From: Enterobacteria phage vB_EcoM_IME338
Sequence record: MH051914
Strand: one strand, 5' to 3'
DNA length: 64,000 bases
This document shows, in pieces, positions 2,447 to 64,000 of the stretch (position 1 is its first letter; the number at the start of each line of letters is the position of its first letter). The notes under the pieces are model-generated. The model was not told the DNA's origin. It was given only the letters and a program-made list of their open reading frames with translations, and searched no databases. The translations under genes were made by a program, and so were the position numbers.

Positions 2447-3553
2447 ATGACTACTAAAACTAAATCACAGATTGACGCAGAAATTTACAAACTGGTTAAA
2501 GAGGGCAAGCTGACTAAAACAGCTATTGCACAGAAATTTAATACTTCAACCCGTTCAGTTGGTCGTGCTGTAGAGCGTCATGAAGCAACCTTAAAAGGTA
2601 AGAAGAAGGCAACTTCTACACCAGCTACAAAGACTTTGAAACAAGTTGCTAAGACCTTTAAAAAGAAAGCTGACAAACCAGTTGAAAAGGTTGTTAAAAA
2701 GGCTGTACAGAAAGCTCCGGTAAATAAACTGCATGAAGCTATGCAGAAAGATGACAAGATTGAGTACATGATTACTGGCGACTCTGTAATTATGACTTAC
2801 GGTTCAGAATCTGAAATTGTTGAGTCTACTCATCCGAACTATCAAGAGATTGTAGTCCATGTTGTGAAAGGTGAGTTTAAGAAAGCCTTTGAACTGATGA
2901 ATATTCGTAAGTCTATCGAAAACTTCACTCAGGGTGCTATCACAATCAAAGGTGACAAGTTATTCTACGGTGCTGTTGAGATGCGTTCTACTCTGGTTGA
3001 CCGTATTCTTCACATGATGAAGACTGGAGATAAATGTTTTGAACGCCTTGTAATGTTCTTCGAAAAACTGATGGAAAACCCATCTAAAGGTTCTGTAGAA
3101 CAACTGTGGGGATTCATATCTCACCTTGATGTTGAAATTGATGAAGAAGGCTACATTATCGGTTGGAAAAAGGTACAAAGTAAAGCTGACGGTTCTCTGG
3201 TAGACAGCCACACCCATAAAGTACCTAATGACTTGGGTAACCTAGTTGAGATGCCTCGTTGGATGGTTGATAATGACCCTAACCGCACTTGCTCTCAGGG
3301 TTTACATGTTGGTGCATGGGAATATGTATCATGTTTTGGAGGTGATACCATCCTGAAAGTTCGTGTCCATCCACGAGATGTTGTATCTGTTCCGACTGAT
3401 TACAACGATATGAAGATGCGTGTATCAGCTTATGAGTCTTTTGCGATTGTTGACAGCAACCGTAAAGTTATCAAGACTCACTCTGGCTCTGGTGGGTATC
3501 GTGTAGTGATTGGTTCTCACGGTGAGTTAATCTCCAAGACAGCACGCGTTTAA
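2447..3553 (+). CDS. rIIB: rIIB-like protein
   Basis: 368-aa ORF directly downstream of rIIA-like gene; N-terminal HTH-like segment; conserved-looking C-terminal block VHPRDVVSVPTDYNDMKMR; assignment by synteny and motif recollection. Confidence 0.5.
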   Translation: MTTKTKSQIDAEIYKLVKEGKLTKTAIAQKFNTSTRSVGRAVERHEATLKGKKKATSTPATKTLKQVAKTFKKKADKPVEKVVKKAVQKAPVNKLHEAMQKDDKIEYMITGDSVIMTYGSESEIVESTHPNYQEIVVHVVKGEFKKAFELMNIRKSIENFTQGAITIKGDKLFYGAVEMRSTLVDRILHMMKTGDKCFERLVMFFEKLMENPSKGSVEQLWGFISHLDVEIDEEGYIIGWKKVQSKADGSLVDSHTHKVPNDLGNLVEMPRWMVDNDPNRTCSQGLHVGAWEYVSCFGGDTILKVRVHPRDVVSVPTDYNDMKMRVSAYESFAIVDSNRKVIKTHSGSGGYRVVIGSHGELISKTARV

Positions 3554-26666: not shown

Positions 26667-26743
26667 CTCTGTTTAGCTCAGCTTGGTAGAGCGTTCCGTT
26701 TGGGGCGGTAAGGCCGGAGGTTCAAGTCCTCCAACAGAGACCA
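26667..26743 (+). tRNA. tRNA-Pro (anticodon TGG)
   Basis: manual cloverleaf: acceptor CTCTGTT/AACAGAG, anticodon loop TTTGGGG, T-arm GGAGG-TTCAAGT-CCTCC, CCA encoded. Confidence 0.75.
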
Positions 26744-26750
26744 AATTAAT

Positions 26751-26828
26751 GTTCCAGTAGACAAAATGGTATAGTCACCACTCTTTCAAAGTGGATATTT
26801 GAGGGTTCAAATCCCTTCTGGAACGCCA
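26751..26828 (+). tRNA. tRNA-Glu (anticodon TTC)
   Basis: acceptor GTTCCAG/CTGGAAC, anticodon arm CCACT-CTTTCAA-AGTGG, CCA encoded. Confidence 0.75.
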
Positions 26829-26835
26829 GTTTTGA

Positions 26836-26908
26836 CAGAAGACCAATTACAGCAAACTTAATCTTATTCATCTGACACGAAATCGGACAAAGAAGAGATT
26901 TGGTCTGG
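26836..26908 (+). ncRNA. Y-RNA-like structured element E1
   Basis: 5' CAGAAGACCAATTACAGCAA ... 3' TTGGTCTGG; terminal helix AGACCAA/TTGGTCT. Confidence 0.4.
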
Positions 26909-26919
26909 TCATTAAGAAT

Positions 26920-26996
26920 TGCGGGTATAGAGAAAGGGCGTCTCACATGTCTCATTAGCATGGTATCGGCAGGTTCGACTCCTGCACCCGCCTCCA
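26920..26996 (+). tRNA. tRNA-Met-like (anticodon CAT), atypical acceptor/D junction
   Basis: D-arm GAGA/TCTC, anticodon arm CATGT-CTCATTA-GCATG, T-arm GCAGG-TTCGACT-CCTGC; acceptor pairs only with a 3-nt connector or 1-72 mismatch. Confidence 0.5.
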
Positions 26997-27002
26997 ATTT
27001 TG

Positions 27003-27062
27003 CAGAAGACCGTATGCAGCAATAAACTACTTTTTGCGGATAAAAGAAAAAACACGGTCTGG
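27003..27062 (+). ncRNA. Y-RNA-like structured element E2
   Basis: 5' CAGAAGACCGTATGCAGCAA ... 3' ACGGTCTGG; helix AGACCGT/ACGGTCT (compensatory vs E1). Confidence 0.4.
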
Positions 27063-27073
27063 CAACCTATTAA

Positions 27074-27147
27074 GGTTAGGAAGCACATGAGGTATGTGCG
27101 GTCGCCTGTTAAGCGAATGGCACAGGGTTCGAATCCCTGACTAACCG
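27074..27147 (+). tRNA. tRNA-Asn (anticodon GTT)
   Basis: D-arm GCAC/GTGC, anticodon loop CTGTTAA, T-arm CAGGG-TTCGAAT-CCCTG. Confidence 0.75.
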
Positions 27148-27159
27148 CAAAATTTAAAT

Positions 27160-27247
27160 GTGTCGTTATCCCGTAGATGGTAGCGGTGGGGACTGTAAAT
27201 CCCTTGTCATTGAGACTCGGTAGGTTCGACTCCTACACGGCACACCA
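27160..27247 (+). tRNA. tRNA-Tyr (anticodon GTA), class II
   Basis: acceptor GTGTCGT/ACGGCAC, anticodon arm GGGGA-CTGTAAA-TCCCT, long variable arm, T-arm GTAGG-TTCGACT-CCTAC, CCA. Confidence 0.75.
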
Positions 27248-27308
27248 ATTTTGAGAGGGCTATTTAGCCCCTCCCTTAAAGGGTTCTTACGAGTATTCTT
27301 TAAAGGAG

Positions 27309-27382
27309 CAGAAGACCAAATACAGCAAGTTATTTAAAATTTCAAGCCAATTTAATTTTGAAAAATTTAAAACTTGGTCTGG
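27309..27382 (+). ncRNA. Y-RNA-like structured element E3
   Basis: 5' CAGAAGACCAAATACAGCAA ... 3' TTGGTCTGG. Confidence 0.4.
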
Positions 27383-27395
27383 CTCAACAAATTTA

Positions 27396-27526
27396 CAGAA
27401 AACCGTTTACAGCAAAACTTAAACAATCTATTTCTCGGTAAAGAAAAGGCGAAGGTTCGATTCCTTCACTCGGCAGATGTCGAGTTGGTGTAATGGTAGC
27501 ACTTAAGATGATAAACAACGGTCTGG
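27396..27526 (+). ncRNA. YrlA-like RNA candidate: terminal helix enclosing a permuted tRNA-like module
   Basis: ends CAGAAAACCGTTTACAGCAA / AACGGTCTGG; internal T-arm GAAGG-TTCGATT-CCTTC, closed acceptor-like hairpin ACTCGGC-AGAT-GTCGAGT, D-arm GTGT-AATGGTA-GCAC. Confidence 0.5.
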
Positions 27527-27529
27527 TAA

Positions 27530-27669
27530 TTATCTTTGTAGATAAGTTATTAAGCTTACCTGTGAGTATGCGACCACAAAGGGTGAAAGGGTAAATTCTA
27601 GATTTAAACCCAACAAGGCACATCGCTACAGACCTTAAGCAAGTCTGGGTAGCTTATCTACAAAGATAA
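27530..27669 (+). ncRNA. structured RNA candidate with perfect 17-bp terminal stem
   Basis: TTATCTTTGTAGATAAG pairs with CTTATCTACAAAGATAA about 105 nt away; inner bulged hairpin CTACAGAC/GTCTGGGTAG. Confidence 0.4.
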
Positions 27670-27675
27670 TTTAAT

Positions 27676-27751
27676 GGAAGTGTAGCAGAATGGTGATGCG
27701 GCAGACTTTTAATCTGACAGGCGATGGGTTCGAATCCCTCCACTTCTACCA
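27676..27751 (+). tRNA. tRNA-Lys (anticodon TTT)
   Basis: acceptor GGAAGTG/CACTTCT, anticodon loop CTTTTAA, T-loop TTCGAAT; T-stem only 3 G-C pairs. Confidence 0.6.
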
Positions 27752-27755
27752 ATAT

Positions 27756-27832
27756 GGTTCAGTCGCAGATAAGGTAATGCAGGGGTCTCATAAGCCCTAT
27801 GAATGTGGGTTCGATTCCCATCTGAACCTCCA
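27756..27832 (+). tRNA. tRNA-Met (anticodon CAT; initiator/elongator/Ile2 not resolved)
   Basis: acceptor GGTTCAG/CTGAACC, anticodon arm GGGGT-CTCATAA-GCCCT, T-arm GTGGG-TTCGATT-CCCAT. Confidence 0.7.
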
Positions 27833-27834
27833 AT

Positions 27835-27910
27835 GCTGTGAAAGCACATATGGATGTGCATTCGGCTGATAACCGAAAGGCAGAAGGTTCGAATCCTTCT
27901 CACAGTACCA
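27835..27910 (+). tRNA. tRNA-Ile (anticodon GAT)
   Basis: canonical: D GCAC/GTGC, anticodon arm TTCGG-CTGATAA-CCGAA, T-arm GAAGG-TTCGAAT-CCTTC, CCA. Confidence 0.85.
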
Positions 27911-27925
27911 ATTTCAATAAAGTTG

Positions 27926-27954
27926 TTGACATTGATGTGTGACTACTTTATAGT
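27926..27954 (+). promoter_or_regulatory. internal sigma70-like promoter within tRNA region
   Basis: TTGACA-N17-TATAGT. Confidence 0.55.
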
Positions 27955-28157
27955 AACCTTAGTTTTCGTTGCGTAGCGTCTATTTTGCAAATCTAAAATA
28001 AATGCAAACGACAATGTTTTTCTGGCAGTAGCTTGATAGGCTAAACACCAGTGAGGTCTTCCAATCCCTCATCAAAGAATTTGGCGTACTCGCCCACGGT
28101 ATGATTAATAAGGTGGGCATCTTTAAGGGCTTTCTAAGAGAGTCTTTAAAGATTAAT

Positions 28158-28234
28158 GCACCCTTAGTTCAACTGGACAGAACAAATGACTTCTAATCAT
28201 TAGGTTACAGGTTCGAATCCTGTAGGGTGTGCCA
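28158..28234 (+). tRNA. tRNA-Arg (anticodon TCT)
   Basis: D GTTC/GAAC, anticodon arm AATGA-CTTCTAA-TCATT, T-arm ACAGG-TTCGAAT-CCTGT, CCA. Confidence 0.8.
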
Positions 28235-28376
28235 AATAGTTAGCAGATTGCTTAGACGACCTTATCGGGTCTCCGTGTAAGGAGGTGGTCTGTATCTCAT
28301 GTTTTCCAGAACATGTAAATAATCTGAGAAGGGGCTTTACAGTGTTGTGAAAATACGGTAAGCTTCGAATTATAGT

Positions 28377-28459
28377 GTGGGACGATGTTAAGACTCTAAG
28401 GCATGAGCAACGGCTTCCAACACCGTTTCAAAGGGGTTCAACTCCTCCGTCCCATGCCA
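28377..28459 (+). tRNA. tRNA-Trp-like (anticodon CCA) with 7-nt insertion between acceptor stem and D-arm
   Basis: acceptor GTGGGAC/GTCCCAT + CCA; D ACTC-TAAGGCAT-GAGC; anticodon arm AACGG(C)-TTCCAAC-(A)CCGTT with 31-39 mismatch; T-loop TTCAACT; 9-nt connector instead of 2. Confidence 0.45.
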
Positions 28460-28472
28460 AAGTCTTATTAGG

Positions 28473-28560
28473 GGTAGGTAGCGGCTAATGGTAGCCAAAC
28501 TGTCTTGAAAACAGTTGCCACTGTAGAGATACGGTGAGGGTTCGACTCCTTTACTTACCG
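28473..28560 (+). tRNA. tRNA-Ser (anticodon TGA), class II
   Basis: acceptor GGTAGGT/ACTTACC, anticodon arm ACTGT-CTTGAAA-ACAGT, variable arm stem CTGTA/TACGG, T-loop TTCGACT. Confidence 0.7.
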
Positions 28561-28817
28561 CCTAATAAGATTTAAAGCCAAGCTTCATTCGGATGTTGCT
28601 TTGGTATCCCTCGTGTATTGTCGTACACCCTGATAAAGCACCTAGTAGGTGTCACGGAGAAGAGATAATATCAAGCTCTCCAAAGGTTCTAGTCACCGGA
28701 TTGAACAAGACTATGCAAAGACCAATTTAGGTCTTTTTAGAGGGCTTCTAAGGTTATTACAGCTTGTTGTGGAACCTTGTTGCTTAGGTTCTTAGAAGTT
28801 CTCTAAAAAGATTTAAT

Positions 28818-28894
28818 GCACCTATAGCCCAACTGGTAGAGGCAGCAGACTTAGAATCTGCTCAGTGTGAGTTCGAATCTCTCTAGGTGTACCA
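28818..28894 (+). tRNA. tRNA with anticodon TAG (Leu by anticodon) but short variable arm
   Basis: acceptor GCACCTA/TAGGTGT, anticodon arm GCAGA-CTTAGAA-TCTGC, T-loop TTCGAAT, A73, CCA. Confidence 0.6.
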
Positions 28895-28901
28895 AATTAA
28901 T

Positions 28902-28977
28902 GCAGGTGTAGCAAAATGGTTATGCGGCTGACTCTTAATCAGTAAGACGATGGGTTCAATTCCCTCCACCTGTACCA
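28902..28977 (+). tRNA. tRNA-Lys (anticodon CTT)
   Basis: paralog of Lys-TTT gene; anticodon loop CTCTTAA; CCA. Confidence 0.6.
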
Positions 28978-28983
28978 AACATT

Positions 28984-29059
28984 GGGGTCATAGTTTATAT
29001 GGTTAAAATTCGAGTTTTGCAAACTTGGGAACTGAGTTCAATTCTCAGTGACTCCACCA
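28984..29059 (+). tRNA. tRNA-Ala (anticodon TGC)
   Basis: acceptor GGGGTCA/TGACTCC with G3-U70 identity pair, anticodon loop TTTGCAA, T-arm CTGAG-TTCAATT-CTCAG, CCA. Confidence 0.8.
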
Positions 29060-29065
29060 ATTAGT

Positions 29066-29140
29066 GCATCCATAGTTTAAACGGGAAAATTACAGTCTTC
29101 CAAACTGAGGTTGAGGGTTCGATTCCCTCTGGATGCTCCA
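29066..29140 (+). tRNA. tRNA-Gly (anticodon TCC)
   Basis: acceptor GCATCCA/TGGATGC, anticodon loop CTTCCAA, T-arm GAGGG-TTCGATT-CCCTC, CCA. Confidence 0.75.
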
Positions 29141-29147
29141 AATTAAT

Positions 29148-29224
29148 GCTGCTTTCGTATAATTGGCTATTACACATCCCTTGTAAGGATGGAAATGCAG
29201 GTTCGAGTCCTGTGAGCAGCACCA
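29148..29224 (+). tRNA. tRNA-Thr (anticodon TGT)
   Basis: anticodon arm CATCC-CTTGTAA-GGATG, T-arm GCAGG-TTCGAGT-CCTGT, CCA. Confidence 0.75.
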
Positions 29225-29227
29225 ATT

Positions 29228-29319
29228 CAGAGGTCAAGTGAAAGACCGCTGGTGTCAACTGAAGACCGTAACAAATTCCACGGAGTTGAGTTAGCGGCAC
29301 AACTTCAGACCTCTTTCAT
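29228..29319 (+). ncRNA. structured element E6 with two GAAGACC-type motifs
   Basis: CAGAGGTC...GACCTCTTTCAT terminal pairing; internal GTGAAAGACCGC and CTGAAGACCGTAACAAA. Confidence 0.3.
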
Positions 29320-29394
29320 ACTCGCTTAGTTTATATGGTAAAACACCACCCTTACAAGATGAAGAAAAAGGTTCAAGTCCTTTAGTGAGTACCA
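29320..29394 (+). tRNA. tRNA-Val-like (anticodon TAC) with weak anticodon stem; possible pseudo-tRNA
   Basis: good acceptor, D-arm GTTT/AAAC, T-arm AAAGG-TTCAAGT-CCTTT; anticodon loop CTTACAA but stem CCACC/GATGA has 3 of 5 pairs. Confidence 0.45.
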
Positions 29395-29395
29395 T

Positions 29396-29474
29396 GTTCC
29401 AGTATCCCAATTGGCAGAGAGGCCAGACTTAAAATCTGTGTTATGTATCGGTTCGAATCCGATATGGAGTACCA
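29396..29474 (+). tRNA. tRNA-Leu-like (anticodon TAA), atypical 5' half
   Basis: T-arm ATCGG-TTCGAAT-CCGAT, anticodon loop CTTAAAA, acceptor GTTCCAG/ATGGAGT with two G-U pairs; D-arm pairing ambiguous. Confidence 0.45.
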
Positions 29475-29479
29475 AATTT

Positions 29480-29555
29480 AGCGGTATAGCATAACTGGCA
29501 ATGCAACAGTCTCTGAAGCTGTCTTATTAAGGTTCAAATCCTTATGCCGCTGCCA
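29480..29555 (+). tRNA. tRNA-Gln (anticodon CTG)
   Basis: D GCAT/ATGC, anticodon arm ACAGT-CTCTGAA-GCTGT, T-arm TAAGG-TTCAAAT-CCTTA, CCA. Confidence 0.75.
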
Positions 29556-29586
29556 CTTCTAAGGATTCTTACGAGAGTCCTTAAAT

Positions 29587-29662
29587 GTGGCCTTATCATA
29601 AATGGTAATAACCCATGCTGTGAACATGGTCTATACGGGTTCAAATCCCGTAGGTCACCCCA
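29587..29662 (+). tRNA. tRNA-His (anticodon GTG)
   Basis: anticodon arm CCATG-CTGTGAA-CATGG, T-arm ACGGG-TTCAAAT-CCCGT, C73, CCA; no encoded G-1. Confidence 0.7.
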
Positions 29663-29667
29663 ATTTA

Positions 29668-29744
29668 TAGTCCAAGTAGCTTATATGGTTAAAGCGCGTG
29701 TCTGAAAAACATGAGAAGAGGGTTCAAATCCCACTGGACTACCA
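29668..29744 (+). tRNA. tRNA-Phe-like (anticodon GAA), 4-nt acceptor/D connector
   Basis: perfect acceptor TAGTCCA/TGGACTA, D GCTT/AAGC, anticodon arm CGTGT-CTGAAAA-ACATG, T-loop TTCAAAT. Confidence 0.55.
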
Positions 29745-29760
29745 ATTTCAAAGGTGCTTA

Positions 29761-30495
29761 ATGAAAGAGATGACAGAACAAGGTAAGGAGATTTTTAATC
29801 TCTTAAAAACCGGTAGAGGGTTTTCTAATCCCCTTATTACTGGTGCAGCAGTTCTCGGTGGAACCGTAGCTGCCTCTACATCACTTATAAGCTCTATTAG
29901 CTCTGTAACAGACCCTACAATAAAGGATAAACTTGTTGCTGCTGGACTGACAACAGTTCTGCTTAACAGCTTTACAACGAGCCTGACAAGCACTACATCA
30001 ACCACTAAGACATTGACAGACTACGGTCAAAAGTCTATTGATGAGTTTTCATCACGTATGCAGGTAGCAAAAGGCTATTCTAATGTTATGGGTGCAGCAG
30101 GAGAGCAAGTTGGTTGTACACCATTTAGTGGTATTATGGGTGTTGCTACAGAGTATGGTCAAAAAGCTATTGACACAATTAACAGTGCACTAGATGGTGT
30201 TAATGATGTATTAAGCGACTTACAAGATGCTATTGATAAAGGTCTTGATACTATTTCTGATTTAGCTAACCAAGCTGTTAGCAAGATTAATGAAGGTATC
30301 TCAAAGATTACAGCTTATGCAGATGAAGTTGTGCAGATGATTGAAGAAGAAGCTGCCCTTATTGCAGAGTACCTTAAAACGAATATCAATGGGTTCTTAG
30401 CAGGTATCTTACCAGACTGGTTTGACGATGCTTGTAAAACTGGTGTAATTGATACTATTGCAACACCAGAAATGAAGAACGCATTACAGAAATAA
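29761..30495 (+). CDS. hypothetical Ser/Thr/Ala-rich protein embedded in tRNA array
   Basis: start reset to ATG 29761 with AAAGGTG RBS; track start 29698 would overlap tRNA-Phe-like gene. Confidence 0.5.
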   Translation: MKEMTEQGKEIFNLLKTGRGFSNPLITGAAVLGGTVAASTSLISSISSVTDPTIKDKLVAAGLTTVLLNSFTTSLTSTTSTTKTLTDYGQKSIDEFSSRMQVAKGYSNVMGAAGEQVGCTPFSGIMGVATEYGQKAIDTINSALDGVNDVLSDLQDAIDKGLDTISDLANQAVSKINEGISKITAYADEVVQMIEEEAALIAEYLKTNINGFLAGILPDWFDDACKTGVIDTIATPEMKNALQK

Positions 30496-30496
30496 T

Positions 30497-30589
30497 GGAA
30501 GATTAACCCTAAAAGGTAAGGGAGCAGTTTGCTAAACTGCCAGTAGCTGAGAAATCGGTGTACCAGTTCAAGTCTGGTATCTTCCTCCA
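30497..30589 (+). tRNA. tRNA-Ser (anticodon GCT), class II
   Basis: acceptor GGAAGAT/ATCTTCC, anticodon arm GCAGT-TTGCTAA-ACTGC, long variable arm, T-arm ACCAG-TTCAAGT-CTGGT, CCA. Confidence 0.75.
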
Positions 30590-30593
30590 ATTT

Positions 30594-30669
30594 GAATCCG
30601 TGACAGAAATGGATATGTGCCTGTCTGCAAAACAGGTTTATAAGGGTTCGAGTCCCTTCGGATTCTCCA
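30594..30669 (+). tRNA. tRNA-Cys (anticodon GCA)
   Basis: acceptor GAATCCG/CGGATTC, anticodon arm CCTGT-CTGCAAA-ACAGG, T-arm AAGGG-TTCGAGT-CCCTT, CCA. Confidence 0.8.
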
Positions 30670-58938: not shown

Positions 58939-60039
58939 TTATTCGTAATCTCGTATAACTAACCCAACAGGGAACTGTAAAGAACCCTTACGAGTCATCT
59001 TCTGGAACTGAACCGTTAAAGGCTTCCCGATAAACTCTTCAGGATGCTCAGCAAGATACTGTTTCTTCTCATGAGTAGTCTTCCATGAGACATCTACAAA
59101 GACGTTAGGAAGAGTCTCTACAACGAACTTGCCATGACCACGCTTATCAGTCTTTACACCAGTCACTTTAAACTCTTCAGTGTGCATCTTCTTATGCTTA
59201 ATCAAGAAGTATGAACGGTGACAACACTCATAGAAGGAGTCTTCAGAGATTGAACGGTACATTGCACCTTCAAACTTAGCTTCAACCCACTTATCATGAG
59301 CTTCATCAAACTCTTCCCAAGAGTTAACACGGATAGTCTGTACAGGAACAACTCTACAGGTATCACCAAGCTCAATAATGGGTGAGTTATCAATAACTTC
59401 ACGACGCTCAGGCCAAGTTTTTGAATTGTCACAGATATCATACCAGTAGAATTTAAGAAGGTGACGTTCTGGGTTGTCAGCATTCTTAATCATAGACACA
59501 ATATCTTCTAAGTCCCAACCATGAGCATAAATCTCACCATCAAAGTCTTCGACTTGTGGATGTAATTTAAGCAACAAAAGCAAATCTGGGATTAGTTCTG
59601 CTGGGACGTTGTAAACAGTATTCTCACGAGAATAAGCCGTGAAGCTAACTGAATCAGCATCTCTTGAAATTCTACAACGTACACCGTCAAGTTTTGGTTG
59701 AGCATCAGCAGGGAACTTCAGATACTTTGCATGGCTAACCTTTGCAGCATCATGAGCAAGTTGTACACCAACCTTCTCAGTGTTCTGTGCAGACTCTTTT
59801 GTGTAAGCATAACCTTTGCGGTCAACTTGCTTTTTATACTTAGCAGCAACTTCAAAGAGAGCTTGCTGTTCAGCGTTACGCTCATTCTTTTTACCGATGT
59901 TTTTAGGTTCTGCTGTATACTCTTCAAACATCATCTTGCCATTTTCTTTACCATACGTGGTAACAACTTTGTCACCTACAGCAACACATGACCAGACGTT
60001 GAAAGAGCCGTCTTTATTTTGTTTGTACAGAATTGTCAT
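58939..60039 (-). CDS. ATP-dependent DNA ligase
   Basis: nucleotidyltransferase motif I PKLDGVRC, motif IV-like FDGEIY; 366 aa (too short for NAD-dependent LigA). Confidence 0.7.
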   Translation of the reverse strand: MTILYKQNKDGSFNVWSCVAVGDKVVTTYGKENGKMMFEEYTAEPKNIGKKNERNAEQQALFEVAAKYKKQVDRKGYAYTKESAQNTEKVGVQLAHDAAKVSHAKYLKFPADAQPKLDGVRCRISRDADSVSFTAYSRENTVYNVPAELIPDLLLLLKLHPQVEDFDGEIYAHGWDLEDIVSMIKNADNPERHLLKFYWYDICDNSKTWPERREVIDNSPIIELGDTCRVVPVQTIRVNSWEEFDEAHDKWVEAKFEGAMYRSISEDSFYECCHRSYFLIKHKKMHTEEFKVTGVKTDKRGHGKFVVETLPNVFVDVSWKTTHEKKQYLAEHPEEFIGKPLTVQFQKMTRKGSLQFPVGLVIRDYE

Positions 60040-60521: not shown

Positions 60522-61054
60522 TCAAGATAGTTTTGCAAACTCTCCGTGGAGTTTTATAGTGGCTTCACAGTAAGCTTTATGGGCTTCTTCAGGTGTGTCA
60601 TGATAACCTAAAAACATCTTCTTACCTCTATAACTTATCTGTGCGACCCACCTACCAGACTTCTTCTTAAGACTTACACCCTTGTACCCAGATTTATTGG
60701 TGACTGGCTTACCTTTATTCCAAGCACTTTGAAAGTCATCTGCTTCCCTTAAGTTTACAATCCTGTTGTCAAGTGAGTCTCCGTTGATATGGTCAATGAT
60801 ACTTTTGGCATCTTGCCATACACGTAAAGCCATGCGAGTCTGTGTGCTTTATGTGCTTTCTTGTCAAAATAGATACTAATCTGTTTATGACCACTTGAAT
60901 CAGTCTGGATATTACCTGCCACCTTTCCTGCATAATTACTGTTAAAAACACTAACAGCTCTTGATTTACCTTCTCTACGAAGCCAAGTAAAGACCCCTGT
61001 TTCGGGGTCATAGCGTAGCAGCTCCTTTAAACGTTTTTGTAAAATAAAATCCAT
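60522..61054 (-). pseudogene. HNH homing endonuclease with AP2-like DNA-binding domain, split by a frameshift
   Basis: two overlapping ORFs in different frames: N-terminal part [10 protein letters not shown]...AHRLAW (60755-61054) and HNH motif [17 protein letters not shown] + AP2-like C-terminus (60522-60833). Confidence 0.55.
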
Positions 61055-61057
61055 TAA

Positions 61058-61615
61058 TCAATGTACCTCATACCAGCTCTTACCAACCTTTGCTGTACCA
61101 GTTACAAGTGTTTCTTTCCTCAAGCCTAAGTTTTTTGAAGCTTGCCCATACATCCAGTCAGCAATTGCTTTCATATCATGTGTCATACCCTCTGGGCATT
61201 CCCAACTATTTTCGTCGTGATATGCCAGAAGTAACCTTGCTCCGATAGCTGGTTTTCGAGCATTCAGTTTTGTCAGGCCATCTTCACAGGCTTTTCTTGC
61301 TGCTAGGTTGATGGCTTCATTCTGAATCTGTGCTTCCGAACTCATCAGGAGGTAGTTCAGTAGTTTATGTGGAGATTTGCACCATATCCATGCTCCAGCG
61401 ACCCTGATATAACCACCTTTAGCAATTGAAGAGTTCTTCCCAAAAACCTCTTCCAGAGCCTTTTTAGACGCCTTAAAATCAGCTTCTAAGCTATCAAGTA
61501 ACTTCTTAATCTTTGGTAAACGCATATAGTAAGTTTGTTTAGTCAATGCACCTTCTTCCGTAGATGATGCCTTGATAGTTTTTGCAAACTTCTCATCGCC
61601 AGCCCCGAACAATAC
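61058..61615 (-). CDS. DNA polymerase family A, exon 2 (C-terminal part)
   Basis: starts inside motif B (LFGAGDEK) and contains motif C LLLAYHDE; no ATG in frame (first track codon is TTG). Confidence 0.7.
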   Translation of the reverse strand, partial: VLFGAGDEKFAKTIKASSTEEGALTKQTYYMRLPKIKKLLDSLEADFKASKKALEEVFGKNSSIAKGGYIRVAGAWIWCKSPHKLLNYLLMSSEAQIQNEAINLAARKACEDGLTKLNARKPAIGARLLLAYHDENSWECPEGMTHDMKAIADWMYGQASKNLGLRKETLVTGTAKVGKSWYEVH

Positions 61616-61886
61616 ATCTGGTCAATACACTCGCAAGGTGTACCAGTTCTCTTATGAACTTCTCCGCATTTCTACGGAGTGTCGGACTATATCACGTAGC
61701 AGTGATGCTACCGTTGCACTTGGGGATGGTCATTAGCTTACCACCCTACTCTACTCAGTTCATACGTTAAGTATGCTTTTCGATAGTCTCTGAACGTTCC
61801 TCTTAAGAGGCTTCGCTGCTGATTACCATATCTTTCCAGACTTAGGCTTCCAGCAATTCACAACGTTTTACATGCGCCACTGACGC
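61616..61886 (-). other. group I intron interrupting the DNA polymerase gene (boundaries within a few nt)
   Basis: minus-strand RNA carries group I core: P4-like GAAUUGCUGGAAGCC, UAUGGUAAUCAGCAG, P7 strands GUUCAGAGACUA and GAUAUAGUCCGAC; exon 1 frame hits a stop inside. Confidence 0.75.
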
Positions 61887-64000
61887 ATAAATGCCATTTT
61901 TGGCTTTCTTACGACCTTTTGTAATCTCGTGAAGAAGCTCCTCATCCTGCGTCTCCCTACAACGAACAATATCATCTTCCTTGTTTAGACCGAAGTAAAT
62001 ACTATTCAGTGTATGTGCATCAGTACCTGTGTAGACTTCGTAGAGGTCATTCTCAGCATCATAACGAAGATACTTATCAGTTTCTGGATTGAGGTACTTA
62101 TCGAGATGCTTGCAATAGTATCTTCCATCCTCTTGCTTGGTAAATTCTACTGACTCTTTACCTTCAGTTACCGCTTTGGTGAAGTCTTTATCACCCATAA
62201 AGTTACACAGTAAAACAAGCTGTGCAGAGTTCTGGTCAACTGAAACGATATTAGTCCCTTCCTCGCAAATCCACACCTCCCTCATAGGTGCTCCATAGAC
62301 AGCAGCACCAGACGGTACGTTTACAATACCATATTGTGTCATACGTCCAGTTGAAGTACCAAACACCATTGCACCAGCACTAAGGCGACCATCAGGACGA
62401 ATCTGGTTCAACCAACCTTTTTCATCATCCTTTGAGTTCTCAATAGTTCTGCGTCGGTGCATCAAGGTATAGTATTTCGCAATCTTCTGTCCAAGCTCAC
62501 CTTCAATCGTATCATAAGATGATTCAGTAAGTTTTGGTGAAGTACGGATTAAGCAAGGCTCAAGCAAATCTGTGTACTTCTTCACAGACCAGTTATGCTC
62601 AATGTACTGGACACCTTCGTGTTCAACATAACTCAAACCACACCGTTCCACCATCTCATCCCATTTAGGATGCTTTGTAATCATCTTTTTGTTGTCTTTG
62701 AAGCGACAAACCTTAACAGGACGACCATCAGAGTCTTTCTTATAGTTCCAGTCATCTGGAATCCAACCAACTGATTTCAAGTAGTCTTTAACAACTGCTA
62801 CCTGAGTCATACGAGAAACTTCGAACTCAATTGGTGTATATGGTGCATCAATCAAACCTGTGTAGCGACTTGACTCAAGTTCAAAGTGGTTAACAACATG
62901 ACTGTTATAGTACTTCACAGTCTTAACTGTTTTTACTGGCTTCCAGTCTTTGCATTTCTTACCAATCTTTGCATTCAACTCATTGCAAATTGCACGAGCA
63001 TCCTTCATTGCTACAAAGCCTTCCTTGTACTCTTCACCAGTTACCGAGTTGGTTGGTGTATAGCAATTCCGCTTTTCAATGTTAAAAATCTTTGTAGTTG
63101 GCTTACCAAATGGCTTGATTTCATATGTCTGCATCTCACCGTTACGTACCTGTTGACGATACTTTGTCTTAGGGTACTTGGTAATTCTCTTCAGTCCATC
63201 TGCATGACCAAATGCTTCAACATACTCATTCCAAGCTTTTGCAAATTCTTCTCCAGTGACTTTACCTTTGGTCTTAATAGTTGGAGGAAGATGTGGTTCA
63301 ACTTCTGAAGCAAGCTCGTTAGTCAACTTGTCAAGTTCCTTTACATGGAACTCCATAAGCTCTTTATCAGCTTTCCAACCATTGATAGCCTGTTGACTCA
63401 TCCAGAAAGATGTTTCTTTAGCTCGCATGTAGGTTTCATAGGTGTCTACGCCACACTTCTTTAGCTTCAGATATTCATTATCCAATGCACGTTTAGTTTT
63501 GGCGTTAATACGGATATCTTCCACAACACGAGTGAAGATTTCTGCATTCCACACACCCCAATGTTCAATCTCTGGTTTACGGACACCAACACGAGCACCC
63601 CATGCTGCCAAGCCATGAGCACCTTTATAGCCTTTTGGAGTTGGTCTATCCATCCACTGAACACGAGACTGGATAAGAGAATCCTGAAAGAAATTACTCC
63701 ACGGCTTACACTTTGGATTATCAAAGTTCCACAAATCGGGTGCAATGTGATTGAAAACCCACCAGTCATAACCGAGACCGTTATGGATGCAAAGACGTTT
63801 TGCCTTTAACGCAAATTCAACACCTTCACGTAAACCACCCTTAATGTACTTGGTATACTTGTGACCGAGGATAGGTTCATCTGTAAAGACCCATACAGGT
63901 GGCTCTTCATCGTCAGATTTATAGTCTGCGAAAGCCATTACGTGCACTTTAGTGAACTCAAGGAGTAAACCATCAGTTTCTGTATCACCAACTAAATGTA
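61887..64000 (-). CDS. DNA polymerase family A, exon 1 (N-terminal part, runs off window end)
   Basis: Exo I motif DTETDGL in the frame extending past 63947 to the window edge; motif A VSVDQNSAQL; ends inside motif B RKKAKNGIY. Confidence 0.75.

What the first reader, a model, noticed from the sequence alone, without database searches (positions are those of the whole stretch)
61616..61886. Compact group I intron splitting the DNA polymerase gene inside motif B
The polymerase reading frame breaks after ...RKKAKNGIY and resumes in another frame at LFGAGDEK, which together rebuild a T7-type motif B. The roughly 270-nt gap (not a multiple of 3, contains an in-frame stop) carries group I core elements on the coding strand: a P4-like GAAUUGCUGGAAGCC, UAUGGUAAUCAGCAG, and P7 strands GUUCAGAGACUA and GAUAUAGUCCGAC. 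There is no intron ORF, and the exact junction is ambiguous by a few nt.
Basis: partly seen in the sequence, partly recalled or inferred. Interest (0 to 1): 0.8.

Follow-up and report, generated by a model that had tools for sequence, protein, structure and literature searches.

The report
Group I intron in phage DNA polymerase
The DNA polymerase gene of this Felix O1-like phage is interrupted by a real 268-base self-splicing-type (group I) intron with no gene of its own, but the same intron has already been noted and annotated in closely related published phage genomes.

Summary
The window is a Felixounavirus (Felix O1-like myophage). Its family-A DNA polymerase gene on the minus strand is split inside motif B (the O helix) by a 268-nt group I intron at 61615..61882.

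Rfam's group I model scores 62.2 bits against a threshold of 50 (E 2e-13). Removing exactly these 268 nt gives ...KNGIYALLFGAGDEK, identical to the uninterrupted polymerases of Felix O1 and SP116. The 5' splice site follows a U paired with G in P1, the intron ends in G, and a full P1-P10 fold with P7.1/P7.2 (IA-type) can be drawn. Across 17 distinct variants, 99.8% of pair cells stay paired, with two compensatory pairs.

The intron is one allele of a mobile element. Relatives carry no intron, this 268-nt form, a 311-nt deletion form, or an ~800-nt form with an Endonuclease_7-type homing endonuclease gene in P6a. Intron cores are 97-99% identical where the nearby exons are only ~75% identical.

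It is not new. The Meda genome note (2019) and its joined GenBank CDS describe it, and Fang et al. (2018) list the endonuclease-bearing allele. I found no report of splicing being tested experimentally.

Verdict: correct interpretation, already known, low interest.

The parts
61883..64000 (-). polA exon 1. The gene start lies about 25 nt beyond the window end. The exon ends ...AAU GGC AUU UAU GCG U, after the first nt of a Leu codon.
   Evidence: ORF list and translation. Homologous CDS in SLAM_phiST56 and Meda. Frame 2 of 63900..64000 reads HLVGDTETDGLL..., so the frame continues upstream of the listed GVG start.
61615..61882 (-). Group I intron, 268 nt, without an ORF. Intron position n corresponds to window 61883-n.
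   Evidence: Rfam RF00028 62.2 bits, E 2e-13. Exact excision restores collinearity with intronless Felix O1 and SP116. Structure and pair counts.
61058..61614 (-). polA exon 2 (UA UUG UUC GGG GCU ... to the stop codon). It encodes the rest of motif B, motif C (..AYHDE..) and the C-terminus.
   Evidence: Taq and T7 polymerase alignments.
61872..61888 (-). P1. Exon AUGCGU (61888..61883) pairs with the internal guide GCGCAU (61877..61872), with U.G at the 5' splice site. The loop CAGUG (61882..61878) can form P10 with the first 5 nt of exon 2, UAUUG (61614..61610).
   Evidence: Read from the sequence. All 11 pairs are standard in all 17 distinct variants. Intronless alleles carry ACGCCC at the exon positions and could not form P1.
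61817..61865 (-). P3 5' strand CGUUG (61865..61861). P4 UGCUGG/UCAGCA (61855..61850 with 61822..61817). P5 CC/GG. P5a GUCU-GGAA-AGAU, with a GNRA tetraloop.
   Evidence: Rfam alignment, MFE fold, pair counts. The loop is GGAA, GUAA or GAGA in 16 of the 17 distinct variants, all GNRA; SUT_S720 reads UAAA.
61794..61816 (-). P6 (GC/GU) and P6a (CCUC-UUAA-GAGG). The L6a loop is where relatives carry the endonuclease ORF.
   Evidence: Alignment with JH2, EC6 and Mushroom. The base pair C73-G84 is U-A in all 8 long-form introns, a compensatory change.
61685..61788 (-). P7 GACUA (61788..61784) with UAGUC (61689..61685), the guanosine-binding helix. Enclosed: P7.1 (61775..61761), P7.2 (61746..61724), P3 3' strand CAACG (61716..61712) and P8 GUAGCA-UCAC-UGCUAC (61711..61696).
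   Evidence: Conserved strings GUUCAGAGACUA and GAUAUAGUCC match the Rfam consensus. P7.1, P7.2, P8 and P3 are recovered by the MFE fold. P8 C176-G183 is U-A in 7 distinct variants.
61615..61679 (-). P9 CUCCGUA-GAAA-UGCGGAG (61679..61662), P9.1 GUUC/GAAC (61659..61646), P9.2 (61645..61619), and the terminal G at 61615.
   Evidence: Rfam alignment of P9, MFE fold, invariant pairs.
60522..61054 (-). Free-standing HNH-AP2 homing-endonuclease gene starting 3 nt after the polA stop. In this window it is broken by a 1-nt deletion at about 60802/60803. It belongs to the neighbourhood, not to the intron itself.
   Evidence: Pfam HNH_3 and AP2. Alignment with the intact 177-aa gene of SLAM_phiST56.

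Best explanation
This is a 268-nt group I intron without an ORF. It is IA-type, with P7.1/P7.2 and no P2. It sits in the family-A DNA polymerase gene of a Felixounavirus, after the first nucleotide of the Leu codon that aligns with T7 DNA polymerase F528. That is two codons past the O-helix Tyr (T7 Y526).

Inferred mechanism, the standard group I pathway:
1. The pre-mRNA folds. The last six exon nucleotides AUGCGU pair with the internal guide GCGCAU to form P1, placing a U.G wobble at the splice site.
2. A free guanosine nucleotide bound at P7 attacks after that U.
3. The terminal G (61615) then enters the same site, and P10 (exon 2 UAUUG with intron CAGUG) aligns exon 2.
4. The exons are ligated to ...UAU GCG UUA UUG UUC..., which encodes an 899-aa polymerase with an intact motif B.

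Unspliced RNA would give only a truncated product, because the frame stops 41 nt into the intron.

The intron is one allele of a mobile element that spreads among Felixounaviruses by homing. Sister alleles at the same site carry an Endonuclease_7 (DHHRN)-type homing endonuclease gene in the P6a loop. The window's copy lacks it and can spread only passively or with an endonuclease supplied in trans.

Shown here: the sequence anatomy, the family match, the exact junction, the polymorphism and the recombination signature. Inferred: catalysis, the GTP requirement and homing.
For: **Family match.** Rfam RF00028 scores 62.2 bits against a threshold of 50, E 2.3e-13, and is the only such hit in 64 kb.

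**Junction.** The intronless Felix O1 and SP116 polymerases read ...GRKK(A/S)KNGIYALLFGAGDEKFAKTIKA. The window sequence with 61615..61882 removed reads the same, as do JH2, Mushroom and Meda after removal of their 802-, 311- and 268-nt inserts. Meda's GenBank CDS is already a two-piece join of 2700 nt.

**Motif B placement.** The alignment to T7 DNA polymerase 517-572 puts the split codon at F528.

**Structure.** P3, P4, P5, P5a, P7.1, P7.2, P8, P9 and P9.1 are recovered by an unconstrained MFE fold. On 17 distinct variants, 76 proposed pairs are 99.8% paired. There are two compensatory C-G to U-A pairs (P6a, P8) and four wobble-compatible one-sided changes. Among GenBank records not flagged UNVERIFIED, no substitution breaks a helix.

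**Mobility.**
- About 96 of roughly 260 related phage records carry the intron, and about 41 carry the endonuclease ORF.
- Window versus JH2: exons from -400 to +550 are about 75% identical, yet the intron core is 98.9% identical. The flanks are identical for 31 nt upstream and 25 nt downstream.
- Window versus the near-isogenic intronless SP116: 11 differences fall in the 28 positions from -7 to +20, against about 3% in the rest of exon 2.
- In Meda, the intron-type exon tract shrinks to about -5..+14. That is just enough to keep P1 and P10.
- The JH2 intron ORF matches Pfam Endonuclease_7 at E 1e-19.
Against: - No RNA or cDNA data were available, and I found no published splicing assay for any Felixounavirus.
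- Covariation support is thin, because the variants are 96-100% identical in the core. Most pairs never vary, and the structure was drawn from this sequence, which favours it in the slide control.
- The MFE z-score is only -1.76.
- Rfam mis-aligned its P1/P2 positions onto exon sequence at low posterior probability, so P1 and P10 rest on my reading of the sequence.
- The absence of P2 makes the exact subgroup (IA2) uncertain.
Confidence: 0.93

Rival explanations
1. The element is a group I intron by descent but no longer self-splices efficiently. It would need a phage or host protein cofactor, or it splices poorly and so throttles polymerase expression.
For: The intron lacks P2 and is compact. 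No experiment exists. A regulatory 'on-switch' role for phage introns has been proposed for Bastillevirinae (PMC11878797).
Against: All core strings match the Rfam consensus. Variation is structure-preserving. The polymerase is essential, and the intron is fixed in many viable, independently isolated phages. The related phage introns of T7-like phages, SPO1 and Pf-WMP3 are reported to self-splice (PMC3428280).
Confidence: 0.1
2. The polymerase is made as two separate polypeptides, a naturally split enzyme, and the 268 nt is just an intergenic spacer.
For: Most GenBank records annotate two 'DNA polymerase' CDSs. Exon 2 can be read from a TTG codon.
Against: The break falls in the middle of the O helix, between Y526- and Y530-equivalent residues. 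The TTG has no evident Shine-Dalgarno sequence upstream (sequence). The spacer is a high-scoring ribozyme with conserved pairing. Close relatives encode one continuous protein with identical sequence across the break.
Confidence: 0.02
3. The gene is a pseudogene, or an assembly or sequencing artefact interrupts it.
For: The neighbouring HNH gene does carry a 1-nt frameshift in this window.
Against: The identical 268-nt insert is present in many independently sequenced phages, 100% identical in HMD-P8 and 99.6% in four others. Both exons are under clear protein-level conservation. An essential replication gene would not be a pseudogene in lytic isolates.
Confidence: 0.01
4. The gap is crossed by translational bypassing or a programmed frameshift rather than by RNA splicing.
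For: The frames differ across the gap. T4 gene 60 shows that phages can bypass 50 nt (established knowledge).
Against: 268 nt is far beyond any known bypass. There are no matching take-off and landing codons. The sequence matches a ribozyme model instead.
Confidence: 0.01

Closest known systems
polA intron of Salmonella phage Meda (MH586731; PMC6486253) and the same locus in other Felixounavirus genomes
   Same: Same site, same 268-nt ORF-less intron with only a few substitutions. Meda's CDS is annotated as a join, and the genome announcement states that an intron without an HNH gene is present in the DNA polymerase gene.
   Different: Nothing essential. Meda's exon background is Felix O1-like with a shorter intron-type flank (about -5..+14), and its downstream HNH is a different allele. 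Most other records mis-annotate two polymerase CDSs.
Endonuclease-bearing allele in Escherichia phages JH2, EC6 and VpaE1 and Salmonella phage FSL SP-010. JH2, EC6 and FSL SP-010 are listed as 'intron-encoded' DHHRN/Endo VII-motif homing endonucleases by Fang et al. 2018 (PMC6083498)
   Same: Same insertion site and a ribozyme core 96-99% identical.
   Different: These carry a ~480-nt ORF (Pfam Endonuclease_7, E 1e-19) plus a 12-bp P6a extension in the L6a loop, giving 780-805 nt in total. The window's copy has only CCUC-UUAA-GAGG there. The 311-nt Mushroom form is an evident deletion derivative that keeps the ORF's 5' leader and its last codons.
PhiI/W31 (T7-like) DNA polymerase introns (Bonocora and Shub 2004). 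Abstract recalled from memory because the paper is not held; the site is taken from PMC3428280
   Same: Phage of enterobacteria, family-A polymerase gene. Subgroup IA2 with the endonuclease ORF in P6a, as in the Felixounavirus long allele.
   Different: The insertion site is E. coli Pol I position 881 (motif C region), not the O helix. The endonuclease is described as HNH (I-TslI). I found no detectable nucleotide similarity to the window intron in the phage collection.
Motif-B introns of Berlinvirus YpP-G/Berlin (T7-like) and Escherichia phage ManiMatter_Bas94
   Same: polA is split inside the same O-helix codons and carries an Endonuclease_7-type ORF. Bas94 is annotated as a join. Fang et al. 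2018 list the Berlin and YpP-G endonucleases as intron-encoded.
   Different: The sites are 11 nt (YpP-G, after nt 2 of the F524-equivalent codon) and 6 nt (Bas94, after nt 1 of the Y526-equivalent codon) upstream of the Felixounavirus site. The ribozymes are different: Rfam scores 26 and 43 bits, and blastn found no match to the window intron.
SPO1/SP82/Bastille/Pf-WMP3 polA introns with HNH nicking endonucleases
   Same: Group I introns in a conserved finger-domain region of phage family-A polymerase genes. Experimentally self-splicing (PMC3428280, PMC11878797).
   Different: They sit at E. coli position 674, in different phage families, with different endonucleases (I-HmuI, I-BasI, I-PfoP3I).
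Introns in the RNAP2 gene of N4-like phages (Shigella phage Moonfish, Erwinia phage MIF8)
   Same: Closest ribozyme sequences outside Felixounavirus: 77-79% identity over P3-P7. Both are strong RF00028 hits at 91-94 bits.
   Different: Different host gene (virion-independent RNA polymerase subunit), with an HNH ORF, in the Schitoviridae.

Membership tests
Group I intron (Rfam RF00028) | Covariance-model score at or above the curated gathering threshold | tested here: met
   62.2 bits against 50; E 2.3e-13 in the 64-kb window; model positions 1-253 of 253.
Group I intron (Rfam RF00028) | 5' splice site follows a U that forms a U.G wobble in P1 with an internal guide sequence | tested here: met
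   Exon AUGCGU pairs with intron GCGCAU, 6 bp ending in U.G. The pairing is standard in all 17 distinct variants, but invariant, so there is no covariation.
Group I intron (Rfam RF00028) | Intron ends in G (omega-G), and P10 can align the 3' exon | tested here: met
   The intron ends ...CCAGAUG. Exon 2 UAUUG pairs with intron CAGUG, 5 bp.
Group I intron (Rfam RF00028) | Conserved core P3-P8 with the P3/P7 pseudoknot and P4-P6 domain, maintained in evolution | tested here: met
   All helices can be drawn and most are recovered by the MFE fold. 99.8% of 1288 cells are paired, with 2 compensatory pairs and 4 wobble-compatible changes. Limitation: low divergence, so most pairs are invariant.
Group I intron (Rfam RF00028) | Precise removal restores a reading frame collinear with intronless homologues | tested here: met
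   Identical protein across the junction in the intronless Felix O1 and SP116. One-piece 800-nt megablast matches of the spliced junction to intronless genomes.
Group I intron (Rfam RF00028) | Guanosine-dependent self-splicing | not testable with these tools
   No RNA data. No published assay was found for Felixounavirus.
Subgroup IA (IA2-like) group I introns | Extra helices P7.1 and P7.2 between P7 and the 3' strand of P3 | tested here: met
   A 63-nt insert relative to the Rfam consensus sits at exactly this place. It folds into CAUAC/GUAUG and GGGUGGU/ACCAUCC hairpins.
Subgroup IA (IA2-like) group I introns | Remaining subgroup signature (P2, peripheral elements, as in T4 td and Twort) | tested here: inconclusive
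   Only GUAAAA lies between P1 and P3, so there is no P2. P9.1 and P9.2 are present. No subgroup-specific model was available.
Mobile (homing) group I intron | Intron-encoded homing endonuclease | tested here: not met
   No coding-strand ORF of 40 aa or more in the window's intron. It is met in sister alleles: JH2 and others carry a Pfam Endonuclease_7 ORF in L6a.
Mobile (homing) group I intron | Presence/absence polymorphism at one site, with the intron more conserved than its exons and with co-converted flanks | tested here: met
   Intronless, 268-, 311- and ~800-nt alleles exist. The core is 98.9% identical against ~75% for the exons in window versus JH2. Synonymous differences cluster at -7..+20 against intronless SP116.
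Collaborative homing (ORF-less intron plus adjacent free-standing endonuclease, as in S-PM2 psbA/F-CphI) | Free-standing homing endonuclease gene next to the intron-containing gene | tested here: met
   An HNH-AP2 gene starts 3 nt after the polA stop. In this window it is frameshifted.
Collaborative homing (ORF-less intron plus adjacent free-standing endonuclease, as in S-PM2 psbA/F-CphI) | That endonuclease cuts intronless alleles at the intron insertion site, and the intron protects its own genome | not testable with these tools
   The target is unknown. Indirect evidence is unfavourable. Intronless Felix O1 and SP116 carry an HNH-AP2 homologue in the same slot, and several intron-bearing phages (JH2, EC6, VpaE1) have none.

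The most novel reading that the evidence does not exclude
The polA locus of Felixounaviruses may be a natural three-way contest. The players would be an ORF-less intron, an intron allele carrying a DHHRN (Endo VII-type) endonuclease, and interchangeable free-standing HNH-AP2 endonucleases just downstream. In this reading the ORF-less intron persists because it, together with its co-converted synonymous flank, makes the polymerase gene immune to cleavage by one or both endonucleases. It would then hitch-hike on them, a form of collaborative homing. The 11-nt cluster of three different insertion sites in motif B across three phage groups would reflect repeated targeting of the same O-helix codons by this endonuclease family.
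Probability: 0.2. Interest if true: 0.45.

Novelty: already known. Interest (0 to 1): 0.2.

Why it matters
For annotation, it matters that the two 'DNA polymerase' CDSs given in most Felixounavirus records, and the 'hypothetical proteins' called on the opposite strand of the intron, should be one joined 899-aa gene. Felixounaviruses are widely used for Salmonella and E. coli biocontrol and typing, so correct gene models are useful.

Biologically, the locus offers a well-sampled natural series in about 260 sequenced genomes: an empty site, an endonuclease-bearing intron, a decaying endonuclease, deletion derivatives and an ORF-less intron. That series could be used to study the gain-and-loss cycle of homing introns. 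It does not open a new question, because group I introns in phage polymerase genes have been known since SPO1 (1990).

Tried and rejected
- **Second intron in the window.** I looked for one such as the HNH-interrupted nrdD reported for Meda, using Rfam at both the gathering and E-value thresholds. None was found. A six-frame motif scan found only the one HNH gene after polA.
- **Anticorrelation test.** I tested whether the free-standing HNH-AP2 gene is anticorrelated with the intron-encoded endonuclease, or correlated with the intron. There is no clean pattern:
  - Intronless Felix O1 and SP116 have an HNH.
  - Si3, VSe102 and PC79-13 have both an intron endonuclease and an HNH.
  - JH2, EC6 and VpaE1 have only the intron endonuclease.
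- **Primary papers.** I tried to read Bonocora and Shub 2004 and 2009. Neither is held, so statements about PhiI/W31 rest on PMC3428280 and on memory.
- **More variants for covariation.** An IMG/VR scan gave only 7 loci, mostly copies of GenBank phages.
- **Structure-breaking variants.** P9 in GE_vB_NS7 comes from an UNVERIFIED record with several indels. I did not count it as evidence against the fold. The L5a loop UAAA in SUT_S720 is a single departure from the GNRA pattern.
- **Weak Rfam hit.** A match to a plant-virus xrRNA overlapping the 5' part of the intron (18 bits against 31, E 0.5) was dismissed as chance.
- **Direction of ORF gain or loss.** The 311-nt form is clearly a deletion of the long form. 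Whether the 268-nt form is ancestral or a further deletion cannot be decided from the sequences.

Full report
**What the window is.** The 3.6 kb around the finding matches 260 phage records. The best is Salmonella phage SLAM_phiST56 at 98.3% (Andersonviridae, Ounavirinae, Felixounavirus). So the window comes from a Felix O1-like myophage. In these genomes the locus reads, on the minus strand of the window: DNA polymerase, a small HNH endonuclease gene, a few small ORFs, and DNA ligase.

**Checking the observation.**
- The minus-strand ORF 61842..63947 ends ...GRKKAKNGIYASVAHVKRCELLEA*. The frame continues upstream to the window edge, and the gene start lies about 25 nt beyond 64000.
- A second ORF, 61058..61612, begins LFGAGDEK in another frame.
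- Rfam's group I intron model (RF00028) hits 61662..61945 on the minus strand at 62.2 bits, against a gathering score of 50. The E-value is 2.3e-13 for the whole window, and it is the only such hit at either threshold.

**Exact junction.** Rfam placed its P1/P2 positions on exon sequence with low confidence, so I fixed the junctions independently. The last exon bases AUGCGU pair with intron positions 6-11, GCGCAU. This puts a U.G wobble at the bond after the U complementary to 61883. The intron ends ...CCAGAUG, with the terminal G at 61615. The P1 loop CAGUG can pair with the first five bases of exon 2, UAUUG, to form P10. This gives a 268-nt intron, 61615..61882, and the ligated sequence ...AUU UAU GCG UUA UUG UUC GGG....

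**Test against intronless relatives.** Felix O1 (NC_005282) and SP116 (NC_027329) have uninterrupted polymerase genes. Across the site they encode ...GRKK(A/S)KNGIYALLFGAGDEKFAKTIKA, identical to the window's spliced product. The same holds for JH2, Mushroom and Meda after removal of their inserts. The rebuilt segment aligns to T7 DNA polymerase 517-536 (TRDNAKTFIYGFLYGAGDEK). The split codon therefore corresponds to T7 F528, two codons after Y526 in the O helix. By the established equivalences T7 R518/K522/Y526/Y530 = Klenow R754/K758/F762/Y766, this is about position 764 in E. coli Pol I numbering.

**Secondary structure** (intron numbering; window = 61883 - n):

| Helix | Pairing |
|---|---|
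| P1 | exon AUGCGU with 6-11 |
| P2 | none; only GUAAAA lies between P1 and P3 |
| P3 | 18-22 with 167-171 |
| P4 | 28-33 with 61-66 |
| P5 | 37-38 with 56-57 |
| P5a | 42-45 with 50-53, closing a GGAA tetraloop |
| P6 | 67-68 with 88-89 |
| P6a | 73-76 with 81-84, loop UUAA |
| P7 | 95-99 with 194-198 |
| P7.1 | 108-112 with 118-122 |
| P7.2 | 137-143 with 153-159 |
| P8 | 172-177 with 182-187 |
| P9 | 204-210 with 215-221, GAAA loop |
| P9.1 | 224-227 with 234-237 |
| P9.2 | 238-245 with 253-264 |

An unconstrained MFE fold recovers P3, P4, P5, P5a, P7.1, P7.2, P8, P9 and P9.1, and the centroid also recovers P6a. The energy z-score is modest at -1.76. P7.1 and P7.2 between P7 and P3' mark a subgroup IA architecture. 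Without P2 I leave the exact subgroup open.

**Evolutionary support for the fold.** I collected 19 copies (17 distinct) from GenBank and IMG/VR and counted the 76 proposed pairs.
- 99.8% of cells form standard pairs.
- Two pairs show compensatory C-G to U-A changes: the base of P6a in 8 sequences, and P8 in 7.
- Four pairs show wobble-compatible one-sided changes.
- The L5a loop varies among GGAA, GUAA and GAGA, all GNRA, in 16 of the 17 distinct variants; SUT_S720 reads UAAA there.
- The remaining changes lie in loops or joining regions.
- The only broken pairs are in P9 of GE_vB_NS7, a record flagged UNVERIFIED that has several indels.

Because the copies are 96-100% identical in the core, most pairs never vary. 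The structure was also drawn from this sequence. This is therefore supportive rather than strong covariation evidence, and the main weight rests on the Rfam score and the exact junction.

**The intron is one allele of a polymorphic, mobile element.** Four states occupy the same site in Felixounavirus:
1. No intron (Felix O1, SP116 and others).
2. The 268-nt ORF-less form (this window, SLAM_phiST56, Meda, BPS17W1, the REP phages and others).
3. A 780-805-nt form (JH2, EC6, VpaE1, Si3 and others). Here L6a holds a 12-bp stem extension and a ~160-aa ORF with its own Shine-Dalgarno sequence.
4. A 311-nt form (Mushroom, garuso, S19cd). It keeps the stem extension, the ORF's leader and its last codons, and is evidently a deletion between the imperfect repeats GACTCCTAAA and GACTATCTAAG.

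The ORF matches Pfam Endonuclease_7 at E 1e-19. It exists as two alleles only about 72% identical in nucleotides, and in VpaE1 it has a 22-nt deletion. Roughly 96 of about 260 related records carry the intron, and about 41 carry the ORF. These counts include RefSeq/GenBank duplicates.

**Signatures of horizontal spread.**
- Between the window and JH2, the polymerase exons from -400 to +550 are about 75% identical. The intron core is 98.9% identical, and the flanks are identical for 31 nt upstream and 25 nt downstream.
- Against the near-isogenic intronless SP116, whose exon 2 protein is 100% identical, 11 synonymous differences fall in the 28 positions from -7 to +20. Elsewhere in exon 2 the divergence is about 3%.
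- In Meda, the intron-type exon tract is only about -5..+14 within an otherwise Felix O1-like sequence. That is just what is needed to keep the exon strands of P1 and P10.
- Intronless alleles read ACGCCC where P1 needs AUGCGU.

These patterns are what homing by double-strand-break repair, followed by selection for splicing competence, would produce. They do not prove it.

**Neighbourhood.** Three nucleotides after the polA stop lies a free-standing HNH-AP2 endonuclease gene (Pfam HNH_3 and AP2). In this window it has lost one G, at about 60802/60803, just before the HNH motif. This is either a pseudogene or a sequencing error. I asked whether it could be a partner of the ORF-less intron, as in the 'collaborative homing' described for S-PM2 psbA and F-CphI (PMC6083498). 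The distribution does not support a simple link:
- Intronless Felix O1 and SP116 have an HNH-AP2 homologue (~48% identical) in the same slot.
- Si3, VSe102 and PC79-13 have both the intron endonuclease and an HNH.
- JH2, EC6 and VpaE1 have none.

The endonuclease's target cannot be inferred here.

**Comparison with what is known.**
- The 2010 Felix O1 genome paper reported no introns (PMC3185647). That is correct for Felix O1 itself, which has the empty site.
[quoted passage not shown] Meda's CDS is deposited as a join of 2700 nt.
- Fang et al. 2018 list the Endo VII-motif proteins of JH2, EC6 and FSL SP-010 as intron-encoded members of their DHHRN homing-endonuclease family (PMC6083498).
- The SPJ41 paper reports two 'introns' from an ncRNA scan (PMC9951933).
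- I found no splicing experiment for any Felixounavirus.
- A 2012 survey listed three insertion sites in phage family-A polymerase genes: E. coli positions 674, 676 and 881 (PMC3428280). The Felixounavirus site is different from all three.
- Motif B is used elsewhere, however. Berlinvirus YpP-G is split after nt 2 of the F524-equivalent codon. Bas94 ManiMatter, annotated as a join, is split after nt 1 of the Y526-equivalent codon. Those sites are 11 and 6 nt upstream of this one, and both introns carry Endonuclease_7-type ORFs but unrelated ribozymes.
- The nearest ribozyme sequences outside the genus sit in the RNAP2 gene of N4-like phages.

**Verdict.** The element is a canonical phage group I intron, very probably spliced. 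It is an endonuclease-less allele of a homing intron circulating in Felixounavirus. It is already recorded in the literature and in at least one GenBank annotation, so it is not novel. What remains open is experimental: splicing itself, and the roles of the two endonuclease types at this locus.

Noticed in passing
window 60522-61054 (-), indel at about 60802/60803: The free-standing HNH-AP2 homing-endonuclease gene just after the polA stop is frameshifted by loss of one G (CCAAAAGGTATC becomes CCAAAAGTATC), immediately before the HNH motif. It is intact (177 aa) in SLAM_phiST56. This is either a pseudogene or a sequencing error.
   Followed up: yes
slot downstream of polA in L001-L006 and L010-L014: The slot holds at least three HNH-AP2 alleles only ~48-50% identical in protein, or nothing at all. 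There is no clean relation to intron state. It looks like a hot spot for swapping free-standing endonuclease genes.
   Followed up: partly
window 26667-30666 (+): A dense array of about 21 tRNA genes (Rfam tRNA hits), as expected for Felix O1-like phages.
   Followed up: no
window 61572-61736 and 61582-61770 (+); L023 413-529, L024 413-601: ORFs on the strand opposite the intron are annotated as 'hypothetical protein' in JLBYU28 and L27. They lie wholly inside the ribozyme and are almost certainly spurious gene calls.
   Followed up: partly
L011 (VpaE1) intron ORF; L010 (EC6) versus L004 (JH2): VpaE1's intron endonuclease gene has a 22-nt deletion, so it is a decaying gene. The EC6-type and JH2-type endonuclease alleles are only ~72% identical in nucleotides (80% in protein), inside ribozymes that are 97-99% identical. 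This suggests ORF replacement or much faster ORF evolution.
   Followed up: partly
L025 (Yersinia phage YpP-G) about 2100-2810; L008 (Bas94) about 2583-3300: Two other phage groups have polA introns within 11 nt of the Felixounavirus site in motif B, each with an Endonuclease_7-type ORF. That makes three distinct insertion sites in the O-helix codons.
   Followed up: partly
GenBank MG065664 and MG065668 ('Campylobacter phage A132/A126'): Records labelled as Campylobacter jejuni phages are 95.5% identical to this Felixounavirus window over 3.5 kb. This is probably mislabelling or contamination.
   Followed up: no
L016 (IMGVR_UViG_3300035520_000484, contig of 162,992 bp): The intron core occurs on a 163-kb viral contig, about twice the size of a Felixounavirus genome. 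It may be a concatemer assembly. Only 2 kb was held, and the intron is cut off.
   Followed up: no
window 58939-60039 (-): A 366-aa ORF with a KLDGVRC motif corresponds to the ATP-dependent DNA ligase annotated in relatives.
   Followed up: no
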